Both the position numbers and the translations under genes were made by a program. From positions 1 through 52,793 of the IMG/VR virus record IMGVR_UViG_3300032294_002470: a stretch of DNA of 52,793 nucleotides. One strand, given 5' to 3'. Below are positions 4,725 to 52,768 of this stretch, piece by piece (the first letter of the stretch is position 1; every line of letters begins with the position of its first letter). Source of the DNA: a virus. Its lineage: Duplodnaviria > Caudoviricetes. The notes beneath the pieces are model-generated. The model made no database searches, was not told the origin of the DNA, and worked only from the letters and a program-made list of their open reading frames with translations.

Positions 4725-4727
4725 TTT

Positions 4728-5250: not shown

Positions 5251-5251
5251 A

Positions 5252-5989
5252 TTATTCCTCCATTGTTGGTTTCAACCAAATCTTTGTCATAAAAATGTAT
5301 TCAAATAGTGCAGGATACCTCATCAATACTCTGAGAGTTTCGGCAGTATCGTGTTTGAAACATTTAAGTAGCTCTTCCCTGATTCTCTCAGCGGATACGA
5401 CTGCCATGAAGACTTCATAATCGAAGTGCTTGATGTGCTGATGCATGTCGGCTGTGATTACAAAGCCCTTAGTGATCATGAACCTGATCGCTCTTAGGAT
5501 TCTCAAAGGATCGTCCTTGAAAGTAACCTCGCAAGGTAACGGTGTTCTAAGAACTCCATTTTGTAAATCCTCAATTCCGTTGAATGGATCAATCAGTGCT
5601 CCATCCTCGTCCTTTGCGATTGCATTGAGCGTGAAGTCACGTCTTTGTAAATCATCGAATAGAGTTCCAGGCTTCACGATCGGTGTTCTTGTAAAAGGCA
5701 AGTATCCAACCTCTTTTCTAGCCATCACGAAATCCGCAACTCCCTGGTATTTGTGACCATCTGGAAATTTAGCCCTGATCGTATAACAGTCAGCTGTCAC
5801 TAAAAAGATTTGAAACTTCTCACGAGTCAAGTAGTCAACTAGCACTTTGAAAAGGTCTTCTGCTTCCGGAAACTCTTCAATTAAAGACTCCTTGGGAACG
5901 GCAACGAAATCAACGTCCTTTGACTGCAGGCCCAAGATTTCGTCCCTGACCTTGCCTCCTACCTCGTAAAATTTAAAAAATGGTTTCAT
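5252..5989 (-). CDS. tRNA nucleotidyltransferase (CCA-adding/poly(A) polymerase family)
   Basis: VGGKVRD..KDVDF, DLQRRDFTLNA, DDPLRILRAIRF, SAERIREEL. Confidence 0.92.
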   Translation of the reverse strand: MKPFFKFYEVGGKVRDEILGLQSKDVDFVAVPKESLIEEFPEAEDLFKVLVDYLTREKFQIFLVTADCYTIRAKFPDGHKYQGVADFVMARKEVGYLPFTRTPIVKPGTLFDDLQRRDFTLNAIAKDEDGALIDPFNGIEDLQNGVLRTPLPCEVTFKDDPLRILRAIRFMITKGFVITADMHQHIKHFDYEVFMAVVSAERIREELLKCFKHDTAETLRVLMRYPALFEYIFMTKIWLKPTMEE

Positions 5990-12713: not shown

Positions 12714-13790
12714 TTAACGGTTCCAGAAAGGTTTTTGATAGTCAGGTCGAATCATTCGCCAAATGGTTTGACTGTAGTCTCTGTCATGTAACATTGAGAA
12801 TACTAGACCTTGGTATTCCTTTGGGCAATTTGCTTGAATCCACAGTGCGTCATCCTTCTTGGTATCGAGAGGTTGGCTCAACAATTCAGCAAAGATCTTT
12901 TTTGCATCAATTTCCTTCATGACGAATGCAAATTTAAGAGCCCTGATCCAGTCTCTAACCCATGCATCAAATTCATCGGGCACGCTTTCAAGATACTCGC
13001 CTAGATCATCACCGTTTCGCAAGCACTCCCAAATATCAATGTTTGAAAAATTGGTCAACAGTCGGTGTAGTCTAACGTACTCGTCGAACTTGATCTTAAC
13101 TCGGTAATTTGATGGATGGAATCGTAGGACGAAACCTTCCTTATCAGATTCATTAAGGTTCTTATATCGTTTAAAAATATTCTCAGTAATGGTATCCATC
13201 GCCGTCCAAACAATATCCTCTTCAAGGATCCCAGATGAGTGAAATAGCGCTTTAGCCGTTCCCCAATTTACTTCACGCCCTTCCATGACGGCTGACAGAA
13301 ACATAAGCTTTTCTTCCGCATAGTCAACGACTATTCTATTTTCAGGATAGATGATCTCACAAATGTAACAAACAGTTGAATGAAACTTTCCAAGATCGTA
13401 CTTCTTTTTTAGAATCGCTAGACCTGCTTTGGCTTGATCGGATTCAAAGGACCCTCTTGTGGCCATGTGCCAATCGTTATCGTAATGAAATAGGATTCCC
13501 AACGAGCCGTCCATTTTTTCTTGCACATAAACGTACTCATCATTGACCGGAATCTCTCCCTTATTCTCGACCTCCTCGTAGTTAAAGAACTTATTGAAGC
13601 CTCTAGCGACTATTCGGTTCTCATGATCAAGAATCAAACCTCGACACTGTAAGGTCACTTGATCCCAACGTTGTTCGAACTGGCACTCTCTTGAGTAATT
13701 ATAAATGGTGAGTGGAAGCTTAGGATGGTCCTTTGCTTCCACTAATCCGTTATCAACGTAAGGCTGTATGATTTCTCTAGATAAGATCAT
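12714..13790 (-). CDS. T4 Rnl1-like RNA ligase
   Basis: CRGLILD, ARGFNKFFN, EKMDGSLG, KEGFV, VKIKF; ATG at 13790 preferred. Confidence 0.9.
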   Translation of the reverse strand: MILSREIIQPYVDNGLVEAKDHPKLPLTIYNYSRECQFEQRWDQVTLQCRGLILDHENRIVARGFNKFFNYEEVENKGEIPVNDEYVYVQEKMDGSLGILFHYDNDWHMATRGSFESDQAKAGLAILKKKYDLGKFHSTVCYICEIIYPENRIVVDYAEEKLMFLSAVMEGREVNWGTAKALFHSSGILEEDIVWTAMDTITENIFKRYKNLNESDKEGFVLRFHPSNYRVKIKFDEYVRLHRLLTNFSNIDIWECLRNGDDLGEYLESVPDEFDAWVRDWIRALKFAFVMKEIDAKKIFAELLSQPLDTKKDDALWIQANCPKEYQGLVFSMLHDRDYSQTIWRMIRPDYQKPFWNR

Positions 13791-13971
13791 AGTCTTTAGT
13801 TTTTTCAATTTGATGCCACATGATTCCGTCGAAACCTTCAATCACGTAACGATTTACGATTTTATAAATGGTCATGATACCTTTAAGACTATCAAGACTT
13901 GGTGAGAACGTTATTCCATGGGAAAATCCCTTAACTTCTCGATATTGTGCCCGGTATTCTATAAAGATCAT
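13777..13971 (-). CDS. Hypothetical protein
   Basis: Operon-packed ORF. Confidence 0.6.
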   Translation of the reverse strand: MIFIEYRAQYREVKGFSHGITFSPSLDSLKGIMTIYKIVNRYVIEGFDGIMWHQIEKTKDYDLI

Positions 13972-14288: not shown

Positions 14289-14701
14289 AATTTAACTTCA
14301 AAACGATCTCTCATCTCCTGTACCTTCTCATCGGGTACTTCGTGGACGTTCTTGCCACCGTGGCGATTCTCAACGATTAAGGAAACGACATGATACTCGA
14401 ATTGCTTTGCTAAATCTAAGTATGCCTGCATCTCCCATTCTCTGGTGAATGTGTTTGACACTACTATTTCCGGATAGTGTTGACCTGCGCTTAGATGGTT
14501 CTGTTCCATTGCCTCCTGTACGGATCGACGACACCATTCATGGGCATCTTTTAATCTAGAACCGTCGAATTGGTATTTACCTTCCTCATCATAGAAGAAT
14601 TTGTCGGCTTCAAACACGACTCCGCTTGACCACATGTGATTAGCAAATGTGCTCTTACCTGAACCGGGAACTCCACGTAGGAGAATTAATACTCTACTCA
14701 T
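14285..14701 (-). CDS. P-loop polynucleotide-kinase-like protein (AAA_33)
   Basis: LRGVPGSGKST, VSNTF, NVHEVP motifs. Confidence 0.85.
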   Translation of the reverse strand: MSRVLILLRGVPGSGKSTFANHMWSSGVVFEADKFFYDEEGKYQFDGSRLKDAHEWCRRSVQEAMEQNHLSAGQHYPEIVVSNTFTREWEMQAYLDLAKQFEYHVVSLIVENRHGGKNVHEVPDEKVQEMRDRFEVKL

Positions 14702-15369
14702 TACTTAGTCTTCTTTAATATTACTTGATCAATTATGCCATACTTAACTGCTTCGTCTGCTGTCAACCAGAAATCTCTAGTTGCGTCTTTCTTAACTTGG
14801 TCAGGTTTTTTACCGCAGTACTTGCCTAAGAGAATGAAGAGTTCATCATTGATTTTCTTCCACTCTTCCATGTCAACTTCAGCATCCTGGATGTTTCCGC
14901 TAAAACCTCCGCTTGATTGATGTAACATCGTACGTGAGTGCTTTAGTGAGAATCGCTTGCCTTTAGTTCCAGCGCCAAGAAGAACTGATCCCATTGATGC
15001 GGCCATTCCGGTATTAACTGTGATTATATCGGCATTGATGTAGTCCATCACATCGACCATTGAGAGGCCTGACTTGACTGATCCGCCTGGAGAGTCAATG
15101 TGCATTGTGATATCTGCTCCACCGACCGAGTCAAGAAACATTAGCTGAGCCTGAACGATTGTTGACATGTAATCATTCACCGGTCCAGCAACCCATAAGA
15201 TACGATCACGCATTAATCTGGAGAAAATGTCCATTTGAGTAACACGTAGCTCGCGTTCCTCTAGGATATACGGCGTCATTGACGCTTCAACTTGTTTTTG
15301 ATAATTATGCAAATTCAGCGATGACACACCGTGCTCGCTCATTGCGTACTTTTGAAATTCGCTCTTCAT
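14701..15369 (-). CDS. clpP: ATP-dependent Clp protease proteolytic subunit
   Basis: MDIFSRLMRDRI, DSPGGSV, GMAASMGS, MLHQ, RDFWL. Confidence 0.95.
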   Translation of the reverse strand: MKSEFQKYAMSEHGVSSLNLHNYQKQVEASMTPYILEERELRVTQMDIFSRLMRDRILWVAGPVNDYMSTIVQAQLMFLDSVGGADITMHIDSPGGSVKSGLSMVDVMDYINADIITVNTGMAASMGSVLLGAGTKGKRFSLKHSRTMLHQSSGGFSGNIQDAEVDMEEWKKINDELFILLGKYCGKKPDQVKKDATRDFWLTADEAVKYGIIDQVILKKTK

Positions 15370-15373
15370 ACTA

Positions 15374-15757
15374 TTAATTTTCAGAATTATTTGCGAAAAA
15401 ATTTAACAAACTTCTAATGTTACGTTGATCATTGCTCAACTTTTCAATCTCAATACGTTTTTCTGAGATTTCACGTTGCATGTAATCATAGTCTGTTTTT
15501 AGGTCCATCAACTCTTGAGTCTCATTGGCATCCTCAATGAAGGCTGCTTCACGAGCTTCAGCATTCGAATAGACTTTCTTTCCGTTGCCATCGATCGCAT
15601 TGTTAATATCAGCTTTAATTTTTGACTCAATCGTGGTAATTTTGTCCTGTACCTGTTTAGAGGCTTCGGTTCTTTCCAAGATTTCCAATTGGATCTCGCT
15701 GATTGCTTGAGGCAGTTCCATTAAACGGTCCGCCATTTCTGAGAATTTTTGATTCAT
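15374..15757 (-). CDS. Coiled-coil hypothetical protein
   Basis: 127 aa ORF. Confidence 0.75.
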   Translation of the reverse strand: MNQKFSEMADRLMELPQAISEIQLEILERTEASKQVQDKITTIESKIKADINNAIDGNGKKVYSNAEAREAAFIEDANETQELMDLKTDYDYMQREISEKRIEIEKLSNDQRNIRSLLNFFANNSEN

Positions 15758-15789
15758 GATTTCTATTTTTAGGTTAATATACCAAACGG

Positions 15790-15863
15790 TGGACCTTTCA
15801 GGATTTGAACCTGAGACCTTCGCATTATGAGTGCGCTGCTCTAACCAGCTGAGCTAAAAGTCC
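15790..15863 (-). tRNA. tRNA-Ile2/Met (CAT)
   Basis: Cloverleaf, loop CTCATAA; body resembles Ile2. Confidence 0.85.
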
Positions 15864-15865
15864 AA

Positions 15866-15950
15866 TGGTGCCGCCGGCAGGACTCGAACCTGCGAAGCCC
15901 GAAGGCAAGGGATTTACAGTCCCTCGTAATTGCCACTATACGACGTCGGC
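15866..15950 (-). tRNA. tRNA-Tyr (GTA)
   Basis: Long variable arm, loop CTGTAAA, CCA encoded. Confidence 0.92.
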
Positions 15951-15959
15951 ATGATTTTG

Positions 15960-16031
15960 CTGGGATAGGAGGGATCGAACCTCCGACCTTAGAGTTAACA
16001 GCTCTCTGCTCTACCGCTGAGCTATATCCCA
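15960..16031 (-). tRNA. tRNA-Asn (GTT)
   Basis: Loop CTGTTAA. Confidence 0.92.
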
Positions 16032-16036
16032 ATTTG

Positions 16037-16113
16037 TGGTTGGCAATGCAGGACTCGAACCTGCGGCCTCCTCCGTATCAGAGAGGTGCTCTAACCAACT
16101 GAGCTAATTGCCA
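16037..16113 (-). tRNA. tRNA-Ile (GAT)
   Basis: Loop CTGATAC, CCA encoded. Confidence 0.92.
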
Positions 16114-16121
16114 ATTTATTG

Positions 16122-16196
16122 TCGGGATAGGAGGATTCGAACCTCCAGCCTCCTGCTCCCAAAGCAGGCGCGATAACCTGGTTACGCTATATCCCG
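16122..16196 (-). tRNA. tRNA-Pro (TGG)
   Basis: Loop TTTGGGA. Confidence 0.92.
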
Positions 16197-16199
16197 AAA

Positions 16200-16462
16200 T
16201 TTGCTCCATGCTGAGACGTGTACGAAGGCTAGATTTTAACGGGTTACTCTGACTGTTTCGAGAACCATCACCGTGCAGCTTTTGCCGCTTCAGCTTTTTC
16301 ATTAGTGTCTTACCACATAAAAACCTGTCAATCCTTACGTCGGCGATGCAGGATCTTGCTATCGTTAGTCCGAATCGATACCTCATTAGGTCGAGGATTT
16401 TTTTACCACCATCGCTTTATTTAAAGAATGCGACCAATCTTACTGAGCATCTCTTACTCATT
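16200..16462 (-). ncRNA. Candidate structured ncRNA (~260 nt)
   Basis: Non-coding spacer between tRNAs; ends ATGCTCAG...CTCAGCAT near-complementary. Confidence 0.4.
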
Positions 16463-16463
16463 G

Positions 16464-16536
16464 TACAACCTGCAAGATTCGAACTTGCGACCTTTTCCAT
16501 GTCAAGGAAACGCTCTTCCAGCTGAGCTAAGGCTGC
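16464..16536 (-). tRNA. tRNA-Val (GAC)
   Basis: Loop TTGACAT. Confidence 0.92.
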
Positions 16537-16537
16537 A

Positions 16538-16592
16538 TGGAGTCGGAAAGACATGCTGGCTCATATTGAGTTTGGACGCAAGCCCTTCCGAC
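16538..16592 (-). ncRNA. CCA-ended minihelix RNA candidate
   Basis: GTCGGAAGGGC/GTCTTTCCGAC 11-bp stem followed by TCCA. Confidence 0.45.
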
Positions 16593-16598
16593 ATTTAG

Positions 16599-16670
16599 TA
16601 GTCCCTGAGAATTTCGAAATCCCGACCCTCGCCATGTAAAGACGATGCTCTGCCTCTGAGCTAAAGGACT
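16599..16670 (-). tRNA. tRNA-Val (TAC)
   Basis: Loop TTTACAT. Confidence 0.88.
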
Positions 16671-16752
16671 AGTTGACACGCTTTCGCCCCCTGTATGACG
16701 TGTCTTAGATGCCCGTGGTCCGCCACAGCGAATAAGGGAGCCACCCACATTC

Positions 16753-17211
16753 TTATTTGCAAATCTTGTCCGCGATGTATGTTGCTGAGATTGCATACGG
16801 TTTGCAGCGTGGAGTGTAACCTGAACCTTCAACGTAACCTAATGCTGCTCTTAGTAAAGAGTTAGAGCCGTATCGAGGATCAGGGTTTAGGTCAACATCA
16901 ATGAAGGTTGGTTTACAGACGCCATTCGCTTCCAAGTACTGAGCGAGCTCAACAGAGTCCTCAACCTCTTGCCATAGTCTCGTGAATCGGTTAACGACCT
17001 TTGGAAGGGTCTTTTTTGAATAGATCACGTGCCCACCGCTATTTCCGTAATGTAGAACAATGACTAACGCGTAAACTGTTTTCTCACCAATCGTTTGACT
17101 ATCCGATCCGATATACATTCTGATATTATCAGCTTCCGCTAGTTTTGTTTCCAAATAGGGAATGAGATCGATGTAGGCTCCGTTTGTTAGTGATTGAAAT
17201 TTACGGTCCAT
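16753..17211 (-). CDS. RNase H-like YkuK (DUF458) family protein
   Basis: YIGSDSQ, RLWQEV..SV, DVDLN, KPYAISATYIAD; ATG at 17211 (longer ORF overlaps tRNA-Gly). Confidence 0.85.
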   Translation of the reverse strand: MDRKFQSLTNGAYIDLIPYLETKLAEADNIRMYIGSDSQTIGEKTVYALVIVLHYGNSGGHVIYSKKTLPKVVNRFTRLWQEVEDSVELAQYLEANGVCKPTFIDVDLNPDPRYGSNSLLRAALGYVEGSGYTPRCKPYAISATYIADKICK

Positions 17212-17229
17212 TGTTTTAGGTGTTATTTT

Positions 17230-17304
17230 TGGAGCAGGTGGGGAGAATCGAACTCCCATCTCCAGATTGGAAGTCTGGAGTAATAGCCGTTATACGACAC
17301 CTGC
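17230..17304 (-). tRNA. tRNA-Gly (TCC)
   Basis: Loop CTTCCAA, CCA encoded. Confidence 0.92.
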
Positions 17305-17440
17305 ATTACAACTTTTGTATTATCCTAAGAGTTGCCAACTTCGCCGACATACGATTCGGGGGACGTCCACGCCAACACACGTTAAGTGTCTGTAATTCCC
17401 ATCTTCGATCCTTAATTGTGCACCACCAGAGGGCTGTTTG

Positions 17441-17513
<73 letters not shown>

Positions 17514-17523
17514 AATTTGGGTT

Positions 17524-17631
17524 GGATCAGAGGCCTTCTGCCAACCGAGACCTTGTCGTTAACTTTCGTCAGAGCGTACCAAGACACCATTTAATTTTTC
17601 GACTTGAGGTAGTCACGGCCGCCTCTGATCC
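17524..17631 (-). ncRNA. Candidate ~108 nt structured RNA
   Basis: Perfect 11-bp terminal stem GGATCAGAGGC/GCCTCTGATCC. Confidence 0.5.
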
Positions 17632-17685
17632 TCTCAAGTCTATTTCGTATCTTGGCAAAATGCGGCTCGACCCTGATACGCTGTG

Positions 17686-17758
17686 AGCCTCCTGCCGGGA
17701 TCGAACCAGCGACCTACTGATTACAAATCAGTTGCTCTACCAGCTGAGCTAAGGAGGC
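17686..17758 (-). tRNA. tRNA-Thr (TGT)
   Basis: Loop TTTGTAA. Confidence 0.95.
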
Positions 17759-17811
17759 AGTTTAGCGATTATGTTGCAACCAACGTTTTCTTGGTGAAGA
17801 ACGACCTGGTG

Positions 17812-17885
17812 TGGACCGTGAGAGACTCGAACTCTCGACCCCCTGCGTGCAAGGCAGGTGCTCTAGCCATCTGAGCTAACAGCCC
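17812..17885 (-). tRNA. tRNA-Ala (TGC)
   Basis: Loop TTTGCAC-type, G3:U70. Confidence 0.93.
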
Positions 17886-17889
17886 TTAA

Positions 17890-18030
17890 AAGAACAACGT
17901 TGGAGTACCCGTCTCGCTCCAATCTTAACAGCTTCATCAGAGTTTTCTCTGGGCCCAGGCTGAGGGTGATGACCTCTTTGGTCCGGCCGTGATTGTCGAC
18001 ATCACATTGGCCGGAGAGACCGTCATTCTT
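17890..18030 (-). ncRNA. Candidate multi-stem structured RNA (~140 nt)
   Basis: Closing stem AAGAATGACG/CGTTGTTCTT; internal CCGGCC..GTGAT/ATCAC..GGCCGG and TTGGAG/CTCCAA stems. Confidence 0.5.
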
Positions 18031-18032
18031 AG

Positions 18033-18128
18033 TAGCGATAGAGGGATTCGAACCGGTGAAAGATCTTCATGAAACTCTTTCCTCTGCATCGGTGCTCATG
18101 ACTGCGACCGACTCTCCAAGGTATCGCC
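18033..18128 (-). ncRNA. Aberrant tRNA-like element
   Basis: Acceptor GGCGATA/TATCGCT, GGTTCGAATCC T-loop, no canonical D/anticodon arm. Confidence 0.5.
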
Positions 18129-18231
18129 ATTTGGATATTTCAGAAGAGGTTACTAAACTTCAGCTCTTCAAAGCTTCTCAGCTTACAACGTTCCGTCAAT
18201 TGTTTACGCTGCTAACTTATTCGATAAAGCG

Positions 18232-18303
18232 TAGTCCGTACGGGAATCGAACCCGTATTTCACCCGTGAAAGGGGCGTGTCCTAACCGTTAGACGAACGG
18301 ACC
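18232..18303 (-). tRNA. tRNA-Glu (TTC)
   Basis: Loop CTTTCAC. Confidence 0.93.
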
Positions 18304-18336
18304 ATTATCTAAGACTAGGTATAGAAATACCTGGAG

Positions 18337-18410
18337 CGGACTGGACGGGACTCGAACCCGCGACCTCCGCCGTGACAGGGCGGCATTCTAACCAGCTGAA
18401 CTACCAGTCC
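18337..18410 (-). tRNA. tRNA-Asp (GTC)
   Basis: Loop CTGTCAC. Confidence 0.95.
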
Positions 18411-18519
18411 GTTTCTCTTTAGTTCACTCCTGCCCCGTAGAGCATACCTTGAAGGGCTGTTTATCCATGCAAATCTACCTGAAGAGCAATTGGTTTGTGC
18501 TCGACGTACATGGATCCGG

Positions 18520-18597
18520 TGGTAGGTGCACCAGGATTTGAACCTGGATCTTTTTTACTTAACGTAAAATTGCTCTAACCGCTTGAGCTATACACCT
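18520..18597 (-). tRNA. Atypical tRNA, best-pairing anticodon TTA (ochre-suppressor-like or pseudo)
   Basis: Intact acceptor, D and T arms, CCA; anticodon arm TTTTA-CGTTAAG-TAAAA with G33. Confidence 0.6.
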
Positions 18598-18598
18598 A

Positions 18599-18707
18599 TG
18601 GTGATTAGAGCCGGACTCGAACCGGATACCGTGCAGGACGGAATAGACAACCTTACCTCTTTCGAGTTGGGGACTTGGAAACCATCCCGCATTACGTCCA
18701 TCTAATC
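18599..18707 (-). ncRNA. tRNA-like element with non-canonical centre
   Basis: Acceptor GATTAGA/TCTAATC-ACCA, CCGGTTCGAGTCCGG T arm. Confidence 0.55.
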
Positions 18708-18741
18708 AATGATCTAAGACTAGTTACAAAAATGGTCACGG

Positions 18742-18813
18742 TTGCGAGGGATGGATTCGAACCACCGACCCTTGGGTTATGAGCCCAATGAGATACCACT
18801 TCTCCACCTCACA
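18742..18813 (-). tRNA. tRNA-fMet (CAT)
   Basis: Three consecutive G-C pairs in anticodon stem, loop CTCATAA. Confidence 0.88.
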
Positions 18814-18822
18814 ATATATTTG

Positions 18823-18924
18823 CTGACTAAAAAGGATTTGAACCTTAATCCTGAGCTCCAGTTAACCGTTTGCTAAAGCAACTGCCATTACTCCGTTCCT
18901 CTGTGCACCATTACACCATAATCA
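18823..18924 (-). ncRNA. tRNA-like element with expanded anticodon region
   Basis: Acceptor TGATTA/TAGTCA, D arm GTG..CAC, T arm AAGGTTCAAATCCTT, ~50 nt central insert. Confidence 0.55.
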
Positions 18925-18974
18925 ATCGGATGCTTCGAATCATCCAGTCTTAGGGTAATTAATCCCAAGATTTG

Positions 18975-19045
18975 TTGTCCCGCAAGGATTCGAACCTCAA
19001 TTCTCTGGACCAAAACCAGATGTGCTGCCGTTACACCACAGGACA
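18975..19045 (-). tRNA. tRNA-Gln (TTG)
   Basis: Loop TTTTGGT. Confidence 0.93.
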
Positions 19046-19057
19046 ATTTGCGATCTT

Positions 19058-19075
19058 CAATATGTCAAAGAACTC
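19058..19075 (-). promoter_or_regulatory. boxA-like antitermination motif
   Basis: GAGTTCTTTGACATATTG just 5' of tRNA-Gln; resembles rrn-leader boxA. Confidence 0.55.
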
Positions 19076-19145
19076 TCTTTGTTTGTTATTAATAATATAC
19101 CATAATTTGTATTAACTTAATTACTTTCTTTCGAAAGATTTTTAA

Positions 19146-19829
19146 TTATTTAGTAGACTCAATCCGTTTCCTAAGATTGTCAATTGAAATTCCATCATTT
19201 TTGAATCTAGAGTCTGACCCTACTACTATTATTAATGATAAATCATTTTCAGCTACTGCTGACTTCATTTTTTTTCTCATTTGGTTAGTTACCCAACCTT
19301 TATATTCAACGTATGCATTTAATTCCTTCACGTAAAAATCAGGATAAAACGTTCGTATTCTCCCTTCATCTTTATATTTGAAGCCTCTATTATTTCTATT
19401 CCACGTAACATTTAACTCATCAAATAGATTCGCAATTAATATTTCTTCAGAGTTTAAAAACATTTTTTCATTACTTGATGAAATATATTCATAAACTTTA
19501 CTTTTACCGCCTCCTTCTCTTAATCCGCCTGATCCCTTTTTTCTAAGTTCTCCACTTTTTGGCTTAATTCCAGTTAAACACTTTGATCTATATAATTTTC
19601 GGCAATCAATTGATTCACATACTTTCGTTCTAGTGATTCTACTAGTAAATTCGATACCGCAAATTACACAATCTTTAGTTTTCGAATGCTTAGTTAACGA
19701 TTTCGAAACTTTTTCAGATATTTCAGATCGTTTAGCTTTAGTACTAAACGATCTGCTACATTTCACAGAACAAAATCTACTGCTACCATATTCTCCAGTA
19801 TGCGAATTTTGGCAAGTTTCACAAATCAT
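19146..19829 (-). CDS. Putative free-standing homing endonuclease (Zn fingers + PD-(D/E)XK)
   Basis: CxxC clusters, FYPDFY...VEYKG; AT-rich, inserted in tRNA cluster. Confidence 0.75.
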   Translation of the reverse strand: MICETCQNSHTGEYGSSRFCSVKCSRSFSTKAKRSEISEKVSKSLTKHSKTKDCVICGIEFTSRITRTKVCESIDCRKLYRSKCLTGIKPKSGELRKKGSGGLREGGGKSKVYEYISSSNEKMFLNSEEILIANLFDELNVTWNRNNRGFKYKDEGRIRTFYPDFYVKELNAYVEYKGWVTNQMRKKMKSAVAENDLSLIIVVGSDSRFKNDGISIDNLRKRIESTK

Positions 19830-19887
19830 AACATCAAAGTTTAATATTATTTATACTCGAACTAATGATTTTAGTTTTGATAGTTTG

Positions 19888-19958
19888 CACGAGTACCAGG
19901 ACTCGAACCTGGAACAACGATTTTGGAGATCGGCATGATACCATTTCACCATACTCGT
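19888..19958 (-). tRNA. tRNA-Trp (CCA)
   Basis: Loop CTCCAAA. Confidence 0.92.
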
Positions 19959-19975
19959 GTATTTCAAAGAACTAG

Positions 19976-20049
19976 TTGCGGGACCCGGACTTGAACCGGG
20001 AACTTCAGCTTATGAGACTGACGAGATAGCCGTTTCTACGCATCCCGCA
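19976..20049 (-). tRNA. tRNA-Met (CAT)
   Basis: Loop CTCATAA. Confidence 0.85.
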
Positions 20050-20067
20050 ATTTTATATTTTTGTTAG

Positions 20068-20142
20068 TGATCCCGACAGGATTCGAACCTGTGACTCCCA
20101 TATTAAAAGTATGGTACTCTAAACCTGCTGAGTTACGAGATC
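20068..20142 (-). tRNA. tRNA-Lys (TTT)
   Basis: Loop CTTTTAA. Confidence 0.92.
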
Positions 20143-20203
20143 ATAGTGAGGCCCGTAACTCCATGAGAGTCATTAGGCCTTTATCGTTTTCGTTTCATAT
20201 TTT

Positions 20204-20398
20204 TCATTTTCTATATTTTGTTTTTCTGTTGTGTTTCCAAGTTTTGAACTCTCTCCATTTATGATTGGGCAGATCGCCATGATGCCATGACCAGCCTTCT
20301 TCGTAATACGGAGGATACAACCATTTTAATAGAGTTCGATTGTACGCTTTACTATTTTCTGCTTTGTTCAGTTTTGCTCTGTTTCGATTTTTTGACAT
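20204..20398 (-). CDS. Small basic protein (C-terminal WKHNRKTKY)
   Basis: 64 aa K/R-rich ORF between tRNA-Phe and tRNA-Lys. Confidence 0.7.
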   Translation of the reverse strand: MSKNRNRAKLNKAENSKAYNRTLLKWLYPPYYEEGWSWHHGDLPNHKWREFKTWKHNRKTKYRK

Positions 20399-20457
20399 TT
20401 CGCCTTAGGTTTTTTTACCTAATGCATTGTGTACTTCTTCATCTTATTTTATTTTTT

Positions 20458-20533
20458 TGGCGGTGCGGGGCAGGATCGAACTGCCGACACCAGGATTTTC
20501 AGTCCTGTGCTCTACCGTCTGAGCTACCGCACC
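20458..20533 (-). tRNA. tRNA-Phe (GAA)
   Basis: Loop CTGAAAA, CCA encoded. Confidence 0.95.
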
Positions 20534-20537
20534 ATAT

Positions 20538-20574
20538 AAAACAAAAAACCTCGAATTTTTTAGGTTCGAGGTTC
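20538..20574 (-). terminator. Intrinsic terminator/attenuator directly upstream of first tRNA
   Basis: AACCTCGAA-loop-TTCGAGGTT followed by TTTTGTTTT. Confidence 0.75.
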
Positions 20575-20600
20575 GTTGTTTTCATAGTTAATATTTTTAT

Positions 20601-20729
20601 TTAACTTCGTCCACTTGAACCTCGCATAACCCCAAAATCTTTAATCTCAGCTGTCATCACAATCGATGTGCCTGCCGGATACTGATTCCAGTTTTGAGTA
20701 TTTTTTGATATGTTCGTTGTTGTTTGCAC
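20601..20729 (-). CDS. Putative attenuator leader peptide (42 aa)
   Basis: GTG start, MQTTTNISKNTQNWNQYPAGTSIVMTAEIKDFGVMRGSSGRS*; contains CGAGGTTC complementary to the terminator 5' arm. Confidence 0.65.
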   Translation of the reverse strand: MQTTTNISKNTQNWNQYPAGTSIVMTAEIKDFGVMRGSSGRS

Positions 20730-20752
20730 GAGTATTTGAATTTTTGTTTAGT

Positions 20753-20794
20753 TATTTATAAAGCTATTATACCTACTTTTTGAAAAAAGGTTTT
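20753..20794 (-). promoter_or_regulatory. Tandem promoters of tRNA operon (AAAACC-N15-GGTATAAT and T4-late-like TATAAATA)
   Basis: Both motifs recur upstream of genes elsewhere in the window. Confidence 0.6.
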
Positions 20795-21272
20795 ATTCTT
20801 TTCCAACCTTTTTTACGTTTGCCCAAGATTTACTAGGAGACGCTGAATTTACTCTTGCCATTGCCCATTGATGTGCTGTCATTCCAGGTCTTGAACCTGA
20901 AGAGTAAAAAGCACCTAGTCCCTTAACGTATTCTCTTTTAAGATCAGCGAATGAATAACCTTTTTTGGTCGCAACCGCTCTAATCTTTGCAAGAGTTTCC
21001 TTGCTTAAGTTCTTACCTGACTTTTTAGCTTCATCAACTTGTGAATCCTTGCGAGGAGTGTTCTTCCAATCCGGTTTAGATCGTTCCTTTTTTTCCATCT
21101 CGTCACGCAACTTGTAAGCTTGATCCTTTTTGTCAGCTTTCAATAGGGCCTGGGCCTTATCTAGCTTGGCATCTCGGGAACTTCCCTCAGGAGCTTTGTA
21201 TTTAGCTGGGTGACTTGATTTGGCCTCGTTGATTAAGTATTCATTGAAGCTTTGAACTAGTGGCTTAATCAT
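20793..21272 (-). CDS. Basic protein with QWAMARVNS motif (DUF5824-like), capsid-targeting-like N-terminus
   Basis: SFNEYLINE; SGSRPGMTAHQWAMARVNS. Confidence 0.75.
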   Translation of the reverse strand: MIKPLVQSFNEYLINEAKSSHPAKYKAPEGSSRDAKLDKAQALLKADKKDQAYKLRDEMEKKERSKPDWKNTPRKDSQVDEAKKSGKNLSKETLAKIRAVATKKGYSFADLKREYVKGLGAFYSSGSRPGMTAHQWAMARVNSASPSKSWANVKKVGKE

Positions 21273-21282
21273 TGGGGTTTAA

Positions 21283-21846
21283 TTATTTTTTGATAGCTGC
21301 AAGCTTTTCGTTAGCTGCATCAATCTTAGAGATCTTAGAATCAAAGAAGCTCTTGAATTTAGTAACGATTGATTTAATCTTGTCAGAAATCTTAGAGATT
21401 ACAGCCTTAGCCTTATCGGTTAACTTACCTTCGTCTAATTTATTGATTTCAAAAGAGTGCTTAACTGATGTGATTGCAGTATTCTGTCTAACGCATTCGT
21501 TAATGATTGCTTGAGCAGCTTCATCAACCATTGTTAGAGCCTGTTCTACAGCTTTTCCGTAAGCGACTGAAGTTCCTTCTCCACCGTATCTTGTTATTTT
21601 CATTACGTACTTCTCAGTAGTTGCCAATTTATCGTTAAGAACTTTCATTGCATCAAAGATTGGTTTAACTGATGCGTCGAACTCCTTTAGCTCTCCTTCG
21701 ATAGCTTTAGTTTCAGTAGTTAACACTTTCAATCTTTCTTTGATTTCGTGAATTCTTTCTAACTTAGCAATGATTGCCTTGTCTTTTAGTTGTGCTTCAT
21801 TAACTTTTGATTCGTTAACAAATTCTGTGAACTTTAACAGTTTCAT
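21283..21846 (-). CDS. Putative internal virion protein
   Basis: MKLLKFTEFVNE N-terminus; ATAAATAA upstream. Confidence 0.7.
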   Translation of the reverse strand: MKLLKFTEFVNESKVNEAQLKDKAIIAKLERIHEIKERLKVLTTETKAIEGELKEFDASVKPIFDAMKVLNDKLATTEKYVMKITRYGGEGTSVAYGKAVEQALTMVDEAAQAIINECVRQNTAITSVKHSFEINKLDEGKLTDKAKAVISKISDKIKSIVTKFKSFFDSKISKIDAANEKLAAIKK

Positions 21847-21906
21847 GTAGATTCGTGTAATTTTAGGTTATTTATTCGGTGAAGATTATTATTTATCATC
21901 GTAATC

Positions 21907-22434
21907 CTAATAATCATCAGGCTTATCAATTTTATCAACTGCCGCCTGTAATTCGGTCGAAAAGTCACCGACTATCTGTTTAAGCTGATTCGTATTATAT
22001 AGACTTATGAATCTATCGGAGAATGCCTTTAGCTCTTCGCCTTTCAAGTCTTTCCAGTTTTGTTGCCAATTTCCTGAGTACGCAATATCCGCGATAAGAT
22101 CTTCACTTGCTTCTTCTTTGAATCCGAAATCTGCAAGCTCAGCTGAAATATCATCACTAGGCGGATTCACTAGATCAATGATTTCGTCTCTGATCTCAAG
22201 ATTAGTTAATTGTATAACCTCATTTACTCCATATAACTGGTAATCCTCAACGAAATCAAATGAGACCGGTATTCCAACCTCTGGATCAGCCGATTCATGG
22301 TCCCATGTTAAGTCTACATCAAAGTAGTGAACATCGTAAATTTCACCGTCGATTATGAAAAGTTGCTCTTCTATCTCAACTCCATGAAGAGATTCATTTA
22401 TTGCTATGAATTCATTAAATTTCTTTAGTTTCAT
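21907..22434 (-). CDS. Acidic putative internal virion protein
   Basis: MKLKKFNEFIAINE. Confidence 0.7.
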   Translation of the reverse strand: MKLKKFNEFIAINESLHGVEIEEQLFIIDGEIYDVHYFDVDLTWDHESADPEVGIPVSFDFVEDYQLYGVNEVIQLTNLEIRDEIIDLVNPPSDDISAELADFGFKEEASEDLIADIAYSGNWQQNWKDLKGEELKAFSDRFISLYNTNQLKQIVGDFSTELQAAVDKIDKPDDY

Positions 22435-22458
22435 CCGATATTGCGGAATTTTTATTAT

Positions 22459-22722
22459 TTATTCCACCCGGTTTAAAACTTGAACCTGAATTGACATTCC
22501 ATCAGGATTCTTACTGACCTTGATGGTTGCCTCGGAGAATCCTCTAACAAAGAAAAGATCTTCAATTACCTCCTGTAAATCGTCAGGATAAACTTCCGGG
22601 TGTACCATACCCGGCTGGTAGGGATCATGTTCTAGCTTTTCTGTGAACTCTTCAACAAGCCGTGCAAGTTCAATGTCCCTTTGTTTTCGATTTTGTTCTG
22701 AACCTCTGATCATTTCCAACAT
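22459..22722 (-). CDS. Hypothetical protein
   Basis: 87 aa ORF. Confidence 0.7.
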   Translation of the reverse strand: MLEMIRGSEQNRKQRDIELARLVEEFTEKLEHDPYQPGMVHPEVYPDDLQEVIEDLFFVRGFSEATIKVSKNPDGMSIQVQVLNRVE

Positions 22723-23048
22723 AATTGTATTGCGAGTATTGTGAGACCTAGCATAAGACAGATCACGGTTTTTAGACTAAGGCCTTCAGAGAACAGCCAT
22801 TGGGACATTATCGTGAATACTGTGATCCCAATTGAGAATCCTATTAATCTACTCGGCCAAATAAGACCGTCGAATGCCAACACGAAATTTTTTACTGAAT
22901 TCATAAAAAGCCAAGAAACTGGCAGTCCAAGTAGGATCAGCCAGTTTCTATGATTTTTTAACAGGTCCCATCTCATTGGCCCCTGTAGTTGAATGAATGT
23001 TAATACTTGAGCAATGAAGCCGTAAAGAAAACCTAGAAACAACTTCAT
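22710..23048 (-). CDS. Small four-TM membrane protein (SMR/DMT-like)
   Basis: 112 aa, four hydrophobic helices. Confidence 0.7.
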   Translation of the reverse strand: MKLFLGFLYGFIAQVLTFIQLQGPMRWDLLKNHRNWLILLGLPVSWLFMNSVKNFVLAFDGLIWPSRLIGFSIGITVFTIMSQWLFSEGLSLKTVICLMLGLTILAIQLCWK

Positions 23049-23737
23049 TAACCTATGTATTTAGCAAAATTAACGGCAGCTTTATAGGCATCTTCGTAAG
23101 AGTGAATTGTTTTACTTCCGCGTAATTTGAAAGGAATGTGGCCTACTGCCCATGTATTCAAAGTGAATTCTTCGTCCTTATGGTCAGAGCCGCTCTGTAA
23201 CCATTCGGTGTATTCGATTTGAAATTCTCCCAAGTGTTTCACGTAGTGTTTTTCAAGAGCAAACAGCTCATCATCATTTGGAACCCAACTTGCATCGAAT
23301 AACTTATCGCCCTTACCGAATGCACAAGCTCCACGATGAGAGTAACCTATCCACTGCTTTGCCTCCTTGCTCCATGCAGTATGAGGATGAGAACCTTTAG
23401 TTGATCGGAGTCCGTTATTGTAATACCACCAACCTTCTTCAATAGAGCCAACGTAGTGGCCGTCAGCGTTCATGCATGAATTGGTTAATGTGTACTCATT
23501 ATTTGGGCCAAACGTGTGAGTTTGGACCTTAAGGCCGGTGTTCTTTCTGATCAGGTCAATGCAATCGGGGTTTACTACTAAACCGTTCTCATCTCTGAAC
23601 GGTGTTATGCGGCTGACCAACTTGGTGAATCCAAGGTTTAGGTGAATTTTATTCAGCTTATCTTTTCCTGAATAGTGAGGAAACTTTTCAAACTTAAGTC
23701 TGATCTTTCCTAAATATGGTGTTGTGTTTTTAATCAT
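23048..23737 (-). CDS. Hypothetical phage protein
   Basis: WIGYSHRG..FGKGDKLF motif. Confidence 0.8.
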   Translation of the reverse strand: MIKNTTPYLGKIRLKFEKFPHYSGKDKLNKIHLNLGFTKLVSRITPFRDENGLVVNPDCIDLIRKNTGLKVQTHTFGPNNEYTLTNSCMNADGHYVGSIEEGWWYYNNGLRSTKGSHPHTAWSKEAKQWIGYSHRGACAFGKGDKLFDASWVPNDDELFALEKHYVKHLGEFQIEYTEWLQSGSDHKDEEFTLNTWAVGHIPFKLRGSKTIHSYEDAYKAAVNFAKYIG

Positions 23738-23760
23738 CGTTATTATTTAGTTTTATGTAG

Positions 23761-23845
23761 CGGAGAGGGAGGGATTCGAACCCCCGTTAGAGTTACCTAA
23801 AACGGTTTTCAAGACCGCCGCGTTCAACCGCTCTGCCACCTCTCC
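23761..23845 (-). tRNA. tRNA-Ser (TGA)
   Basis: Long variable arm, loop CTTGAAA. Confidence 0.93.
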
Positions 23846-24019
23846 GTTGATTAAATTCCTCTTTCGATTTCTTGTTGAAGAATGTTAATCGTTGTTTCAA
23901 TGAGATCTTGATTATGGAACTCCTTGACTTCTTTAATTTGATCGTAACCAAGGACAGCCTTTACGGTTTGACCGTCCTTAGTTAATGATACAATTATTTC
24001 AATTTTTTCTGCTGAATTA

Positions 24020-24856
24020 CTACTTGACATTGTACATCATGTTTGTACCAGCTCCCAATTGGGTGGTCGGTAATGTACCGTTCCATTTCTCAATCCACAT
24101 TTGCTGTAAGAGCATTGGAGTGATTGCGGATTGCTTAAGTCTATAAGATTCTGCCTCAGCCTTTGAAGTTGCTAGCATGGCTTGAGCATTACCTTCGGCT
24201 GTCGCTACTTTGATCTTGGCTTGAGCCTCAGCTGTTTTTACCTGATTCTCTGCAGTTAGCGCAGCTTGAACCGCATTGTTCTTTGCCTCAATAGCTTTCT
24301 TAAATGTTTCAGGATAGCCTAAGTTCGAGGTCAATTGACTTATTGTGAAACCCTCGTTAAGAAGATCTGTGTCTAATTTAGATCTCACCTTAGTCTCAAA
24401 GGTTTGACGATTAGAGATAAGCTCCTCAGCTGTGTAGGCATTAGCCGTCATACGGAAAGCATCGTATATTGTAGTCTTTAAGAAACCTTCTTCAATGGAT
24501 TCTAGGGTTCTACGATACTTGCTAAAGATTGCTGGCACCTTGTCTCGTTGAACCGAGTAGTTTATGATTGGGCTCACGTGAAATTCGCTACCGTCTTTGG
24601 AATTAACCACGAAAGAATTATCTTCTGTGTATTCCTTGTGTTGAATGTAGGTTGGGAACTCGTAAATTTTGGTTGAGATCGGGTTATAGAATACCCAGCC
24701 TGTGCACTCGGTGATGTCTCCAACGCCCTTACCGGTTCCATACAGGTTTACTCTGACTCCGACGTGTCCAGCGTCGATACGTTCGCATGAGTTCATCAAT
24801 AGAGTCAATGCGGTAAAAAAGCCGATTGCGGCTAAGATTAATTTTCCTTTGTTCAT
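24020..24856 (-). CDS. SPFH/band 7 (prohibitin) family protein
   Basis: RIDAGHVGV, coiled AEA repeats, WIEKWNGTLP. Confidence 0.92.
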   Translation of the reverse strand: MNKGKLILAAIGFFTALTLLMNSCERIDAGHVGVRVNLYGTGKGVGDITECTGWVFYNPISTKIYEFPTYIQHKEYTEDNSFVVNSKDGSEFHVSPIINYSVQRDKVPAIFSKYRRTLESIEEGFLKTTIYDAFRMTANAYTAEELISNRQTFETKVRSKLDTDLLNEGFTISQLTSNLGYPETFKKAIEAKNNAVQAALTAENQVKTAEAQAKIKVATAEGNAQAMLATSKAEAESYRLKQSAITPMLLQQMWIEKWNGTLPTTQLGAGTNMMYNVK

Positions 24857-52649: not shown

Positions 52650-52672
52650 AACTTTTAATTTTTAATTTTAAG

Positions 52673-52768
52673 TAGTCAGGACAGGAATCGAACCTGTAAT
52701 ACCAACCAGTAACTCCTTTGGTCATCGTTGGACTTACGTATAGCGTCTACCGTTTCGCCACCTGACTA
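52673..52768 (-). repeat. tRNA-like repeat copy 4
   Basis: TAGTCAGGTGGCGAAACGGTAGACGCT-variable-TACAGGTTCGATTCCTGTCCTGACTA. Confidence 0.8.

What the first reader, a model, noticed from the sequence alone, without database searches (positions are those of the whole stretch)
20538..20794. Candidate tRNA-census attenuator: leader peptide matches the phage tRNA set
Seen: promoters (20753-20794), then a 42-codon ORF (20729-20601), then an intrinsic terminator (AACCTCGAA/TTCGAGGTT + U tract) ending a few nt before the first tRNA. Codons 36-38 contain CGAGGTTC, a perfect 8-nt complement of the terminator 5' arm GAACCTCG (antiterminator). Codons 1-35 use exactly M,Q,T,N,I,K,W,Y,P,A,G,V,E,D,F and S. 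The downstream cluster encodes tRNAs for the first 15, and tRNA-Ser(TGA) at 23761 reads the leader's TCA/TCG. L, R, H and C are absent from both these codons and the window's tRNAs. W, Y, P, E, D, F occur once each, and isoacceptor pairs are sampled (GGC/GGG, GTG/GTT, ATA/ATT). Established: this is the architecture of trp/his ribosome-mediated attenuation, which senses one or a few amino acids. Inference: stalling at any depleted or cleaved host tRNA frees the antiterminator and switches on the replacement tRNA operon, an inducible counter to anticodon-nuclease defence. I know of no description of this.
Basis: partly seen in the sequence, partly recalled or inferred. Interest (0 to 1): 0.93.

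Follow-up and report, generated by a model that had tools for sequence, protein, structure and literature searches.

The report
Leader-peptide attenuators before phage tRNA clusters
A lake phage seems to control its own tRNA genes with short test peptides whose codons match the tRNAs encoded just downstream, a kind of control that eleven literature look-ups did not find described for tRNA genes.

Summary
On the minus strand lie a promoter-like TATAAT plus TATAAATA, a 42-codon GTG ORF (20729-20601), an 8-nt segment in codons 36-38 complementary to the terminator's 5' arm, and a hairpin with U tract ending 4 nt before tRNA-Phe.

The unit recurs in 10 DNA variants and 5 further peptide variants. 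The frame is always open, and it is the only open frame of six.

- Near-complete relatives hold a second tRNA cluster (Cys-His-Leu-Arg) about 20 kb away, beyond this window. It has its own 23-codon leader, 11-13 codons of which are L/R/H/C, with its own terminator and covarying antiterminator.
- A diverged homologous leader precedes a cluster that includes His, Cys, Arg and Ser(GCU) but lacks Pro. That leader has H, C, CGT and AGC and lacks only Pro.
- Composition-matched nulls give 2e-4 to 1e-2 per leader.

Evidence against:
- Relatives with reduced clusters keep an unchanged leader.
- pN/pS is weak.
- Within this leader type only one compensatory change occurs.
- Translation and readthrough are untested.

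Best reading: a ribosome-mediated attenuator that gives demand-driven tRNA expression. The link to anticodon-nuclease defence is speculation. Eleven literature look-ups found no description.

The parts
20783..20812 (-). Hairpin plus T run overlapping the stop codon of the upstream 159-aa gene (21272-20793). Probably that gene's terminator.
   Evidence: Read. The 3' half and T run are kept in relatives that have other upstream genes.
20766..20771 (-). -10-like hexamer TATAAT, preceded by GG
   Evidence: Present in 9 of 10 aligned variants; in L073 it is replaced by other DNA. The same GTATAAT/GTATATT motif lies 6-10 nt before the start codons of several window genes. The sigma-70 scan did not call it.
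20753..20760 (-). TATAAATA, the shape of a T4-type late promoter (consensus recalled, not tested)
   Evidence: The last 7 of its 8 bases, and the two bases that follow, are invariant in 10 type A variants and in type B. ATAAATAA motifs also lie just upstream of other window genes.
20601..20729 (-). Leader ORF: 42 codons plus TAA, GTG start
   Evidence: Open in 10 of 10 DNA variants and the only open frame of six. One in-frame 3-nt indel. Five further peptide variants, three beginning with M rather than V.
20631..20698 (-). Predicted stem P1 enclosing codons 11-33. Possible pause hairpin.
   Evidence: RNAalifold consensus. 98.6% of cells paired, but almost no variation, so the counts say little.
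20617..20624 (-). Region 2: 5' strand of the antiterminator, in codons 36-38
   Evidence: 8 of 8 pairs kept in 10 of 10 variants, with one pair changed on both sides in L061.
20586..20606 (-). Small hairpin that contains the stop codon, between regions 2 and 3
   Evidence: 94% of cells paired. Kept in a shifted register in L060 and L072 (read).
20567..20574 (-). Region 3: partner of region 2, and at the same time the 5' arm of the terminator
20547..20573 (-). Intrinsic terminator hairpin: 9-bp stem, 9-nt loop
   Evidence: The exact 27-mer occurs in 14 viral contigs.
20538..20546 (-). U tract of the terminator, ending 4 nt before tRNA-Phe
15788..20533 (-). tRNA cluster 1: 20 tRNA genes from Phe to Met covering 15 amino acids, with none for Leu, Arg, His, Cys or Ser. 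Several ORFs are interspersed.
23760..23845 (-). tRNA-Ser(UGA). It reads the leader's TCA and TCG codons but lies 3 kb upstream of the leader, directly after an ORF and without a leader of its own.

Best explanation
The element is a ribosome-mediated (leader-peptide) transcription attenuator placed in front of a phage tRNA operon.

Proposed mechanism:
1. Transcription starts at the conserved TATAAT or TATAAATA motifs.
2. A ribosome translates the 42-codon leader while RNA polymerase approaches the terminator that abuts tRNA-Phe.
3. If the ribosome runs smoothly into codons 36-42 or waits at the stop codon, it masks region 2. The terminator then forms and the transcript ends 4 nt before the first tRNA.
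4. If the ribosome stalls further upstream because some decoding tRNA is scarce, or if it is absent, region 2 pairs with the terminator's 5' arm and polymerase reads into the tRNA genes.

The leader codons upstream of region 2 sample the amino acids whose tRNAs the operon supplies. The circuit would therefore make phage tRNAs on demand and shut down when supply suffices.

Related phages split the task. One leader without L/R/H/C codons guards the 15-amino-acid cluster. A second, L/R/H/C-rich leader guards the Cys-His-Leu-Arg cluster.

Shown here: the architecture, its conservation, the complementarity and the codon-to-tRNA correspondence. Inferred: translation of the leader, the effect of stalling, the direction of control and the biological role.
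For: 1. Conservation. The whole unit is kept next to the first tRNA of the cluster in 10 distinct DNA variants behind different upstream genes. The frame is open in 10 of 10, and the other five frames carry 1-4 stops each. The only indel inside the ORF is 3 nt, while indels in the flanks are 1-2 nt. Three of 5 further peptide variants begin with M rather than V.

2. Alternative folds. Cut before the 3' arm, the RNA folds with region 2 paired to region 3. The full RNA folds with the terminator. RNAalifold on 10 variants picks the 2:3 pairing.

3. Second cluster and second leader. Three near-complete relatives carry a Cys-His-Leu-Arg cluster. It is preceded by a promoter-like motif, a 23-codon ATG ORF with 12, 13 or 11 L/R/H/C codons, and a terminator abutting tRNA-Cys. 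The ORF's last codons pair with that terminator's 5' arm. Two adjacent pairs are swapped on both strands between variants (read). The full-length fold also shows a 1:2 stem over the early codons.

4. Diverged leader (type B). It shares the 5' UTR, the start region and the pre-terminator flank, but its peptide is unrelated. It has 19 amino acids in 33 codons and lacks only Pro. Its cluster supplies 19 amino acids within 7.5 kb and lacks only Pro (4 of 4 loci). Its Ser codon upstream of region 2 is AGC, matching Ser(GCU) in the cluster, and its Arg codon there is CGT, matching Arg(ACG). A different 8-mer pairs with a different terminator arm.

5. Coverage. In 17 of 17 leader-cluster pairs every amino acid of the cluster occurs in the leader.

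6. Null models, own-composition Markov, out of 20,000 open frames each:
- this leader with no L/R/H/C in its first 35 codons: 4;
- leader 2 at least as L/R/H/C-rich as observed: 156, 31 and 269 for the three variants;
- type B with exactly all amino acids but Pro: 36.

Proteome null, out of 200,000 segments: 0.0076, 6e-5 and 0 for the corresponding tests.

7. No Shine-Dalgarno is not an objection. Only 2 of 56 window genes have such a motif, and several genes start 6-10 nt after the same promoter-like motifs.

8. Weak hint of readthrough. One metatranscriptome contig (depth 2.1) spans 20468-20718, from the leader through the terminator into tRNA-Phe. A second spans 20454-20584. DNA carry-over is not excluded.
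Against: - Fine scale. Relatives with reduced clusters keep codons for amino acids the cluster no longer serves. G003 lacks tRNAs for Lys, Asn and Val. L058 lacks Asn, Ala, Gly, Val and Asp. L062 lacks Lys, Asn, Ala and Val. Two variants have Leu at codon 4.
- Weak coding signal. Variable columns by codon position are 15, 16 and 19, and pairwise pN/pS is 0.10-0.98. Blocks are invariant at all three codon positions.
- Covariation within this leader type is one pair in one sequence, reached by 57 of 500 shuffles.
- The six type B loci are nearly identical, so they count as one observation.
- Leader 2 is rich in L, S and R, the six-codon amino acids. Its excess is therefore only 0.002-0.013 under its own composition.
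- Ser codons in this leader are served by a tRNA outside the operon.
- The single Asp and Phe codons lie only about 10-13 nt before region 2, so a ribosome stalled there may mask it (my reading).
- Promoter-like motifs inside the clusters, and one directly before tRNA-Leu(UAA) in type B, could bypass the attenuator.
- No region 1 that pairs convincingly with region 2 was found in this leader type.
- No similar arrangement was seen in a more distant relative (G007) or in Xanthomonas phage XacN1.
- There are no Ribo-seq, Term-seq or reporter data.
Confidence: 0.6

Rival explanations
1. It is a translation-coupled attenuator that senses only overall translation capacity, that is, how closely the ribosome follows the polymerase. 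It has no codon-specific census, and the amino-acid make-up of the leaders is incidental.
For: The architecture needs only a translated ORF that ends over region 2. Reduced clusters keep unchanged leaders. Leader-only amino acids are common in leader 2 and in reduced type A clusters.
Against: It does not explain three features. This leader avoids L/R/H/C (4 of 20,000). The leader of the Cys-His-Leu-Arg cluster is enriched in just those four. The type B leader lacks just Pro (36 of 20,000).
Confidence: 0.15
2. The conserved 200-nt transcript is a structured RNA: a small stable RNA, or an attenuator switched by a protein, tRNA or ligand. The open frame is a by-product.
For: Blocks are invariant at all codon positions. 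A conserved stem P1 and a stop-codon hairpin are predicted. pN/pS is weak. The start is GTG with no Shine-Dalgarno. Fold z-scores are -3.1 and -2.9. Small stable RNAs beside the T4 tRNA genes are known (recalled, not checked).
Against: The frame is open in 10 of 10 DNA variants and is the only open frame of six. The one indel is in frame. Some variants begin with M, and type B adds an ATG. In the conserved core, 5 of 9 changes are synonymous (counted by hand). The ORF body is wholly replaced between types A and B yet stays open. No Rfam family reaches its threshold: the best are 33.6 bits against 50 and 23.7 bits against 55, both on the terminator part. The phage's genes in general lack Shine-Dalgarno motifs.
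Confidence: 0.1
3. The ORFs are ordinary small phage genes, each with its own leaky terminator. The tRNAs are made by constitutive readthrough or from internal promoters. The complementarity and the codon match are coincidence.
For: Phage tRNA regions often hold small ORFs (general knowledge). Promoter-like motifs exist inside the clusters. The peptide core of type A is conserved in 15 variants.
Against: The peptide is not conserved between types A and B while the non-coding flanks are. Three different leaders each put an 8-9-nt complement of their own terminator arm in their last codons. The terminator leaves 4 nt or less for a promoter before the first tRNA in type A and in leader 2. The composition tests argue against coincidence.
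Confidence: 0.08

Closest known systems
Leader-peptide attenuators of amino-acid biosynthesis operons (trp, his, leu, thr, ilv, pheA of enterobacteria). Their features are recalled from established knowledge.
   Same: A short ORF close to the promoter, an intrinsic terminator before the first structural gene, an antiterminator that excludes the terminator and whose availability depends on ribosome position. Leader 2 also has a 1:2 stem over the regulatory codons.
   Different: The controlled genes are tRNAs, not enzymes. The leader samples up to 15-19 amino acids, mostly once or a few times each, instead of a run of one or a few. The antiterminator strand lies inside the last codons. This leader type shows no clear region 1.
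pheST (pheM) leader-peptide attenuation and T-box riboswitches, which are controls of aminoacyl-tRNA synthetase genes (recalled)
   Same: The translation apparatus regulates a component of decoding according to tRNA status.
   Different: Those systems control synthetases for one amino acid. T-boxes bind uncharged tRNA directly and need no ribosome. No T-box or other Rfam leader family reaches its threshold here.
Phage-encoded tRNAs as counter-measures to tRNA-cleaving defences (retron effectors, PARIS). PMC11555353 and PMC11464382 were seen as listings and abstract starts. PMC11555353 and PMC12482277 were searched for terms.
   Same: Phage tRNA genes that replace host tRNAs. The window also carries an Rnl1-type RNA ligase and a Tad6-like gene.
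   Different: In the two papers I term-searched (PMC11555353, PMC12482277), 'attenuat' and 'leader' do not occur. No inducible control of phage tRNA genes was found in print.

Membership tests
Ribosome-mediated (leader-peptide) transcription attenuator | Short ORF between the promoter and the first structural gene, kept open in relatives | tested here: met
   42-43 codons, open in 10 of 10 DNA variants and 5 more peptide variants, and the only open frame of six. Translation itself was not shown.
Ribosome-mediated (leader-peptide) transcription attenuator | Intrinsic terminator directly upstream of the regulated genes | tested here: met
   9-bp stem plus U tract ending 4 nt before tRNA-Phe. 100% of cells paired in 10 variants. 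Termination activity was not measured.
Ribosome-mediated (leader-peptide) transcription attenuator | An antiterminator that excludes the terminator and can be masked by a ribosome at the end of the ORF | tested here: met
   8 of 8 pairs between codons 36-38 and the 5' arm. Analogous pairings with other sequences exist in type B and in leader 2. Covariation within type A is a single event, reached by 57 of 500 shuffles.
Ribosome-mediated (leader-peptide) transcription attenuator | Anti-antiterminator or pause stem (1:2) over the regulatory codons | tested here: inconclusive
   Present in the full-length folds of leader 2, and as a 6-bp pairing in type B. In this window only P1, which does not include region 2, is predicted.
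Ribosome-mediated (leader-peptide) transcription attenuator | Regulatory codons that correspond to the product of the controlled genes | tested here: met
   Coverage is 17 of 17 leader-cluster pairs. The two leaders are complementary in L/R/H/C content. Type B lacks only Pro. This is not met at fine scale in reduced clusters.
Ribosome-mediated (leader-peptide) transcription attenuator | Readthrough rises when the sampled tRNA or amino acid is limiting | not testable with these tools
   Needs reporter, Term-seq or in vitro assays. Two RNA-library contigs bridging the terminator are only a weak hint.
T-box riboswitch and other curated RNA leaders (Rfam 15) | Match to a curated covariance model at its gathering score | tested here: not met
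   In 15000-24500 only tRNA models pass. On 20539-20605 the best are ohsC_RNA at 33.6 bits against 50 and Thr_leader at 23.7 bits against 55.

The most novel reading that the evidence does not exclude
A clade of large freshwater T4-like phages governs its tRNA operons with multi-codon 'census' attenuators. Each tRNA cluster is preceded by a leader peptide that samples the amino acids which that cluster serves. Depletion of any one of them, whether by host shut-off, codon mismatch or a tRNA-cleaving defence, then induces just the operon that can replace it. Sufficiency shuts the operon off. This would be the first leader-peptide control of tRNA genes and the first attenuator that reads out most of the genetic code at once.
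Probability: 0.45. Interest if true: 0.92.

Novelty: new variant of a known kind. Interest (0 to 1): 0.87.

Why it matters
Phage tRNAs are now studied as counter-measures to tRNA-targeting immunity and as codon-usage helpers. I found nothing in print on how their expression is set.

A leader peptide that samples many amino acids and gates the matching tRNA operon would be three things:
- a feedback sensor of decoding capacity;
- a new use of classical attenuation;
- a compact natural part for reporting the depletion of individual tRNAs.

The split into two complementary leader-cluster pairs gives a clean prediction for the bench. Depleting Leu, Arg, His or Cys decoding should open only leader 2. 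Depleting the other amino acids should open only leader 1.

Tried and rejected
- Cultured relatives. blastn of 20100-21300 against 50,697 phage records matched only the tRNA-Phe part, in 52 records. The nearest topoisomerase II matches are below 57% identity. No cultured relative is at hand.
- Neighbour gene as a guide. Of the 53 loci with a relative of the upstream 159-aa gene, only 2 have tRNAs within the 4-kb flank. That gene is therefore not a fixed neighbour of the element.
- More leader-2 variants. Three viral scans returned only the same three variants. The pattern was too strict and found 2 loci.
- More leader types. Three tRNA scans covered fourteen records. All four records had tRNAs. 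Two and all five had none. Only G009 and G013 gave a type B unit. G006 is cut at the contig end. G007, a more distant relative, shows no similar unit upstream of its 7 tRNAs.
- Xanthomonas phage XacN1. The 28 tRNA genes in 21 kb have no leader-terminator unit abutting a tRNA.
- Ribosomal-binding-site argument. Dropped, because only 2 of 56 window genes have such a motif.
- A leader for tRNA-Ser(UGA). None; it follows an ORF directly.
- RNA runs. Only assembled contigs were available, at depths 2.1 and 3.3. They cannot show ends, strand or level.
A first-order Markov model replaced it.
Supplements of papers were not consulted.

Full report
WHAT THE WINDOW IS

The window is one viral contig of 52,793 bases, estimated at about 20% of a genome. 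Nearly all long ORFs lie on the minus strand. It encodes T4-type topoisomerase II subunits and an Rnl1-type RNA ligase. The nearest cultured phages are distant, below 57% identity for topoisomerase II. ARAGORN finds 22 tRNA genes. Twenty form a cluster at 20533-15788, and tRNA-Ser(UGA) lies at 23760-23845. Rfam confirms 21 of them.

THE OBSERVATION

Read on the minus strand, the order of features is:
- a hairpin overlapping the stop of the upstream 159-aa gene (20812-20783);
- TATAAT (20771-20766);
- TATAAATA (20760-20753);
- a GTG ORF of 42 codons (20729-20601);
- an 8-mer in codons 36-38 (20624-20617) that is exactly complementary to 20574-20567;
- a small hairpin holding the stop codon (20606-20586);
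- a terminator with a 9-bp stem and 9-nt loop (20573-20547);
- a U tract (20546-20538);
- tRNA-Phe, starting at 20533.

The consensus scan found no sigma-70 promoter there. It listed the hairpin only on the + strand, because the minus-strand loop exceeds its limit. Folding gives the terminator in the full RNA (z = -3.07). When the RNA stops before the 3' arm, folding gives the region 2:3 pairing.

IS IT CONSERVED?

The exact hairpin occurs in 14 viral contigs. A codon-degenerate pattern for nine leader residues found 13 of them and nothing else. A looser pattern found 9 metagenome contigs. Together with the window they give 10 distinct variants.

In nine of them the promoter-like motifs, the leader and the terminator sit directly before tRNA-Phe, although the upstream genes differ. 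The tenth (L073) has other DNA in place of the promoter-like motifs and a different first tRNA. Of 53 loci that carry a relative of the upstream gene, only 2 have tRNAs nearby.

Evidence for a coding frame:
- The leader frame is open in 10 of 10 variants. The other five frames carry 1-4 stops each.
- The one indel inside the ORF is 3 nt.
- A protein search added five peptide variants. Three of them start with M rather than V.

The coding signature is weak. Variable columns by codon position are 15, 16 and 19, and pN/pS is 0.10-0.98. In the conserved core (codons 7-21 and 30-34 of the aligned ORF) I count 5 synonymous and 4 non-synonymous changes by hand.

Within this leader type the antiterminator has one pair changed on both sides, in one sequence. 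That result is reached by 57 of 500 shuffles. The terminator never varies except for one G-U to A-U change.

THE WINDOW EDGE

Three near-complete relatives (253, 271 and 252 kb) carry this leader and cluster 1. They also carry a second cluster about 20 kb further along: Cys, His, Leu(UAA), in one genome Leu(UAG), Arg(UCU), and in two genomes Arg(ACG). A lone Leu(UAG) lies in between. By the same spacing, the second cluster would fall about 4 kb beyond this window's first base. The absence of L, R, H and C tRNAs from the window therefore does not describe the phage. It does describe the operon behind this leader.

FIRST OUT-OF-SAMPLE TEST: LEADER 2

Upstream of tRNA-Cys in all three relatives lies a GTATATT motif 6 nt before an ATG. 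A 23-codon ORF follows, then a terminator whose U tract abuts the tRNA.
- The peptides hold 12, 13 and 11 L/R/H/C residues of 23, against 15.9% in the window's proteins.
- The first seven codons are conserved, with two synonymous changes. The middle is replaced, yet the length is kept.
- The last codons pair with the terminator's 5' arm. Between variants, two adjacent pairs are exchanged on both strands, while the terminator's 3' arm absorbs the change by G-U pairs (read).
- The full-length fold adds a stem between codons 5-8 and the stop region, which is the classical 1:2 element.

SECOND OUT-OF-SAMPLE TEST: TYPE B

Another group of contigs (six loci, nearly identical) has a leader with the same 5' UTR, start region and pre-terminator flank, but an unrelated 33-codon body. 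Its cluster runs Phe, His, Ser(GCU), Ile, Arg(ACG), Cys, Trp, Asn, Lys, Val, Tyr, Gln, Thr, Ala, Glu, Asp, Gly. Met and Leu(UAA) follow further on. tRNA-Pro lies about 18 kb away, directly behind its own promoter-like motif.
- The leader holds 19 amino acids and lacks only Pro.
- By hand: 29 of its 32 codons after the first are read by standard wobble by a cluster tRNA, including AGC by Ser(GCU) and CGT by Arg(ACG). Two need four-box U34 reading. One (AGG) lies inside region 2.
- Its region 2 and its terminator have different sequences from type A, but they pair in the same way.

STATISTICS

Against 200,000 segments of the window's proteins:
- no L/R/H/C in 35 residues: 0.0076;
- all 15 cluster amino acids covered in 35 residues: 0.031;
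- both together: 0;
- at least 12 L/R/H/C in 23: 6e-5;
- at least 19 distinct amino acids in 33: 0.0135;
- exactly all but Pro: 0.

Against open frames generated from each ORF's own dinucleotide make-up, 20,000 each:
- this leader, no L/R/H/C in the first 35 codons: 4;
- leader 2, at least as L/R/H/C-rich as observed: 156, 31 and 269;
- type B, at least 19 distinct amino acids: 406;
- type B, exactly all but Pro: 36.

The products of these figures should be read loosely. The leader 2 and type B tests were fixed by the hypothesis before I saw those sequences.

WHAT SPEAKS AGAINST A STRICT CENSUS

- Coverage holds everywhere: 17 of 17 pairs. Exclusivity does not. Clusters that lack tRNAs for Lys/Asn/Val (G003), Asn/Ala/Gly/Val/Asp (L058) or Lys/Asn/Ala/Val (L062) keep those codons in the leader.
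- Two variants have Leu at codon 4.
- One peptide variant has lost Pro. Its context could not be fetched.
- Ser codons of this leader are served by a tRNA outside the operon.
- The type B figure of 19 of 19 depends on a 7.5-kb span that crosses ORFs and promoter-like motifs. The contiguous cluster covers 17 amino acids.
- A natural deletion variant (L002/L066) joins the promoter to the terminator without the ORF and without tRNA-Phe.

MECHANISM

The geometry is the same in all three leaders. Region 2 lies in the last codons: 13, 4 and 0 nt before the stop codon. The terminator abuts the first tRNA in type A and in leader 2, and lies about 50 nt before it in type B.

By analogy with enterobacterial attenuators (established knowledge), a ribosome that reaches the end of the ORF masks region 2 and the terminator forms. 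A ribosome held up earlier leaves region 2 free to pair with region 3, and polymerase reads on. In this leader type I find no region 1, so a leader with no ribosome on it would also read through (inference).

Two RNA-library contigs bridge the terminator. They are compatible with readthrough but prove nothing.

COMPARISON AND NOVELTY

This works like a trp- or his-type attenuator and meets the features of that class that can be tested on sequence. It differs in its target (tRNA genes), in sampling most amino acids rather than one, and in the placement of region 2.

No Rfam family fits. Nine full-text searches and term searches in two papers on phage tRNAs found no description of leader-peptide control of tRNA genes. 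The library lacks many subscription journals, and older work on T4 and T5 tRNA regions was not checked.

The defence reading rests only on context: an Rnl1-type ligase at 12714-13841 and a Tad6-like gene at 23048-23737.

VERDICT

The element is a new variant of a known kind. Confidence is 0.6 for a ribosome-mediated attenuator with codon-to-tRNA matching, and about 0.45 for the full demand-driven census reading.

Noticed in passing
window 18520-18597 (-): ARAGORN calls a tRNA with anticodon UUA ('tRNA-Stop'). Rfam tRNA scores it at 50.3 bits. By eye the anticodon loop looks enlarged. ARAGORN lists no such gene in the closest relative's cluster (L056). The leader's own stop codon is UAA.
   Followed up: partly
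window 18600-18740 (-): Between two tRNAs lies a stretch that ends in what looks like a T arm, acceptor strand and CCA. No tRNA is called there. It may be a degraded or interrupted tRNA gene.
   Followed up: no
window 19146-19829 (-) and 16753-17259 (-): ORFs sit inside the tRNA cluster. One has PHROG matches to HNH and other endonucleases, in the manner of a homing endonuclease. The other is RNaseH-like, and as listed its 5' end overlaps tRNA-Gly(UCC) by 30 nt.
   Followed up: partly
window 23048-23737 (-) and 12714-13841 (-): A Tad6-like protein (a Pfam family of Thoeris inhibitors, 75.5 bits) lies next to tRNA-Ser. An Rnl1-type RNA ligase lies 2 kb past the tRNA cluster. A ClpP-like protease lies at 14701-15369.
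   Followed up: partly
whole window, gene starts: Only 2 of 56 long ORFs have a Shine-Dalgarno-like motif. Several start 6-10 nt after GTATAAT/GTATATT or ATAAATAA motifs, which suggests leaderless or nearly leaderless mRNAs as the norm in this phage.
   Followed up: partly
L002/L066 (deletion) and L073 (replacement): Two natural rearrangements. In one relative the promoter is joined to the terminator, with the leader ORF and most of tRNA-Phe gone. In another the promoter is replaced by other DNA, and the first tRNA is a hybrid with a Lys anticodon.
   Followed up: partly
window 52672-52767 (-): ARAGORN calls a 96-nt tRNA-Asp(GUC) at the very end of the window, unusually long for that tRNA. It lies outside the stretch scanned with Rfam.
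   Followed up: no
L095 (G007) about 4050-5400: Long, similar structured inserts lie next to or inside tRNA genes of a more distant relative. They may be introns or a repeated element.
   Followed up: no
window 20197-20454: DNA contigs of two lake runs, and one loose end in an RNA run, skip this 256-nt stretch and have 26 other letters there instead. The 64-codon ORF between tRNA-Phe and tRNA-Lys (20204-20398) is therefore variable among strains.
   Followed up: no
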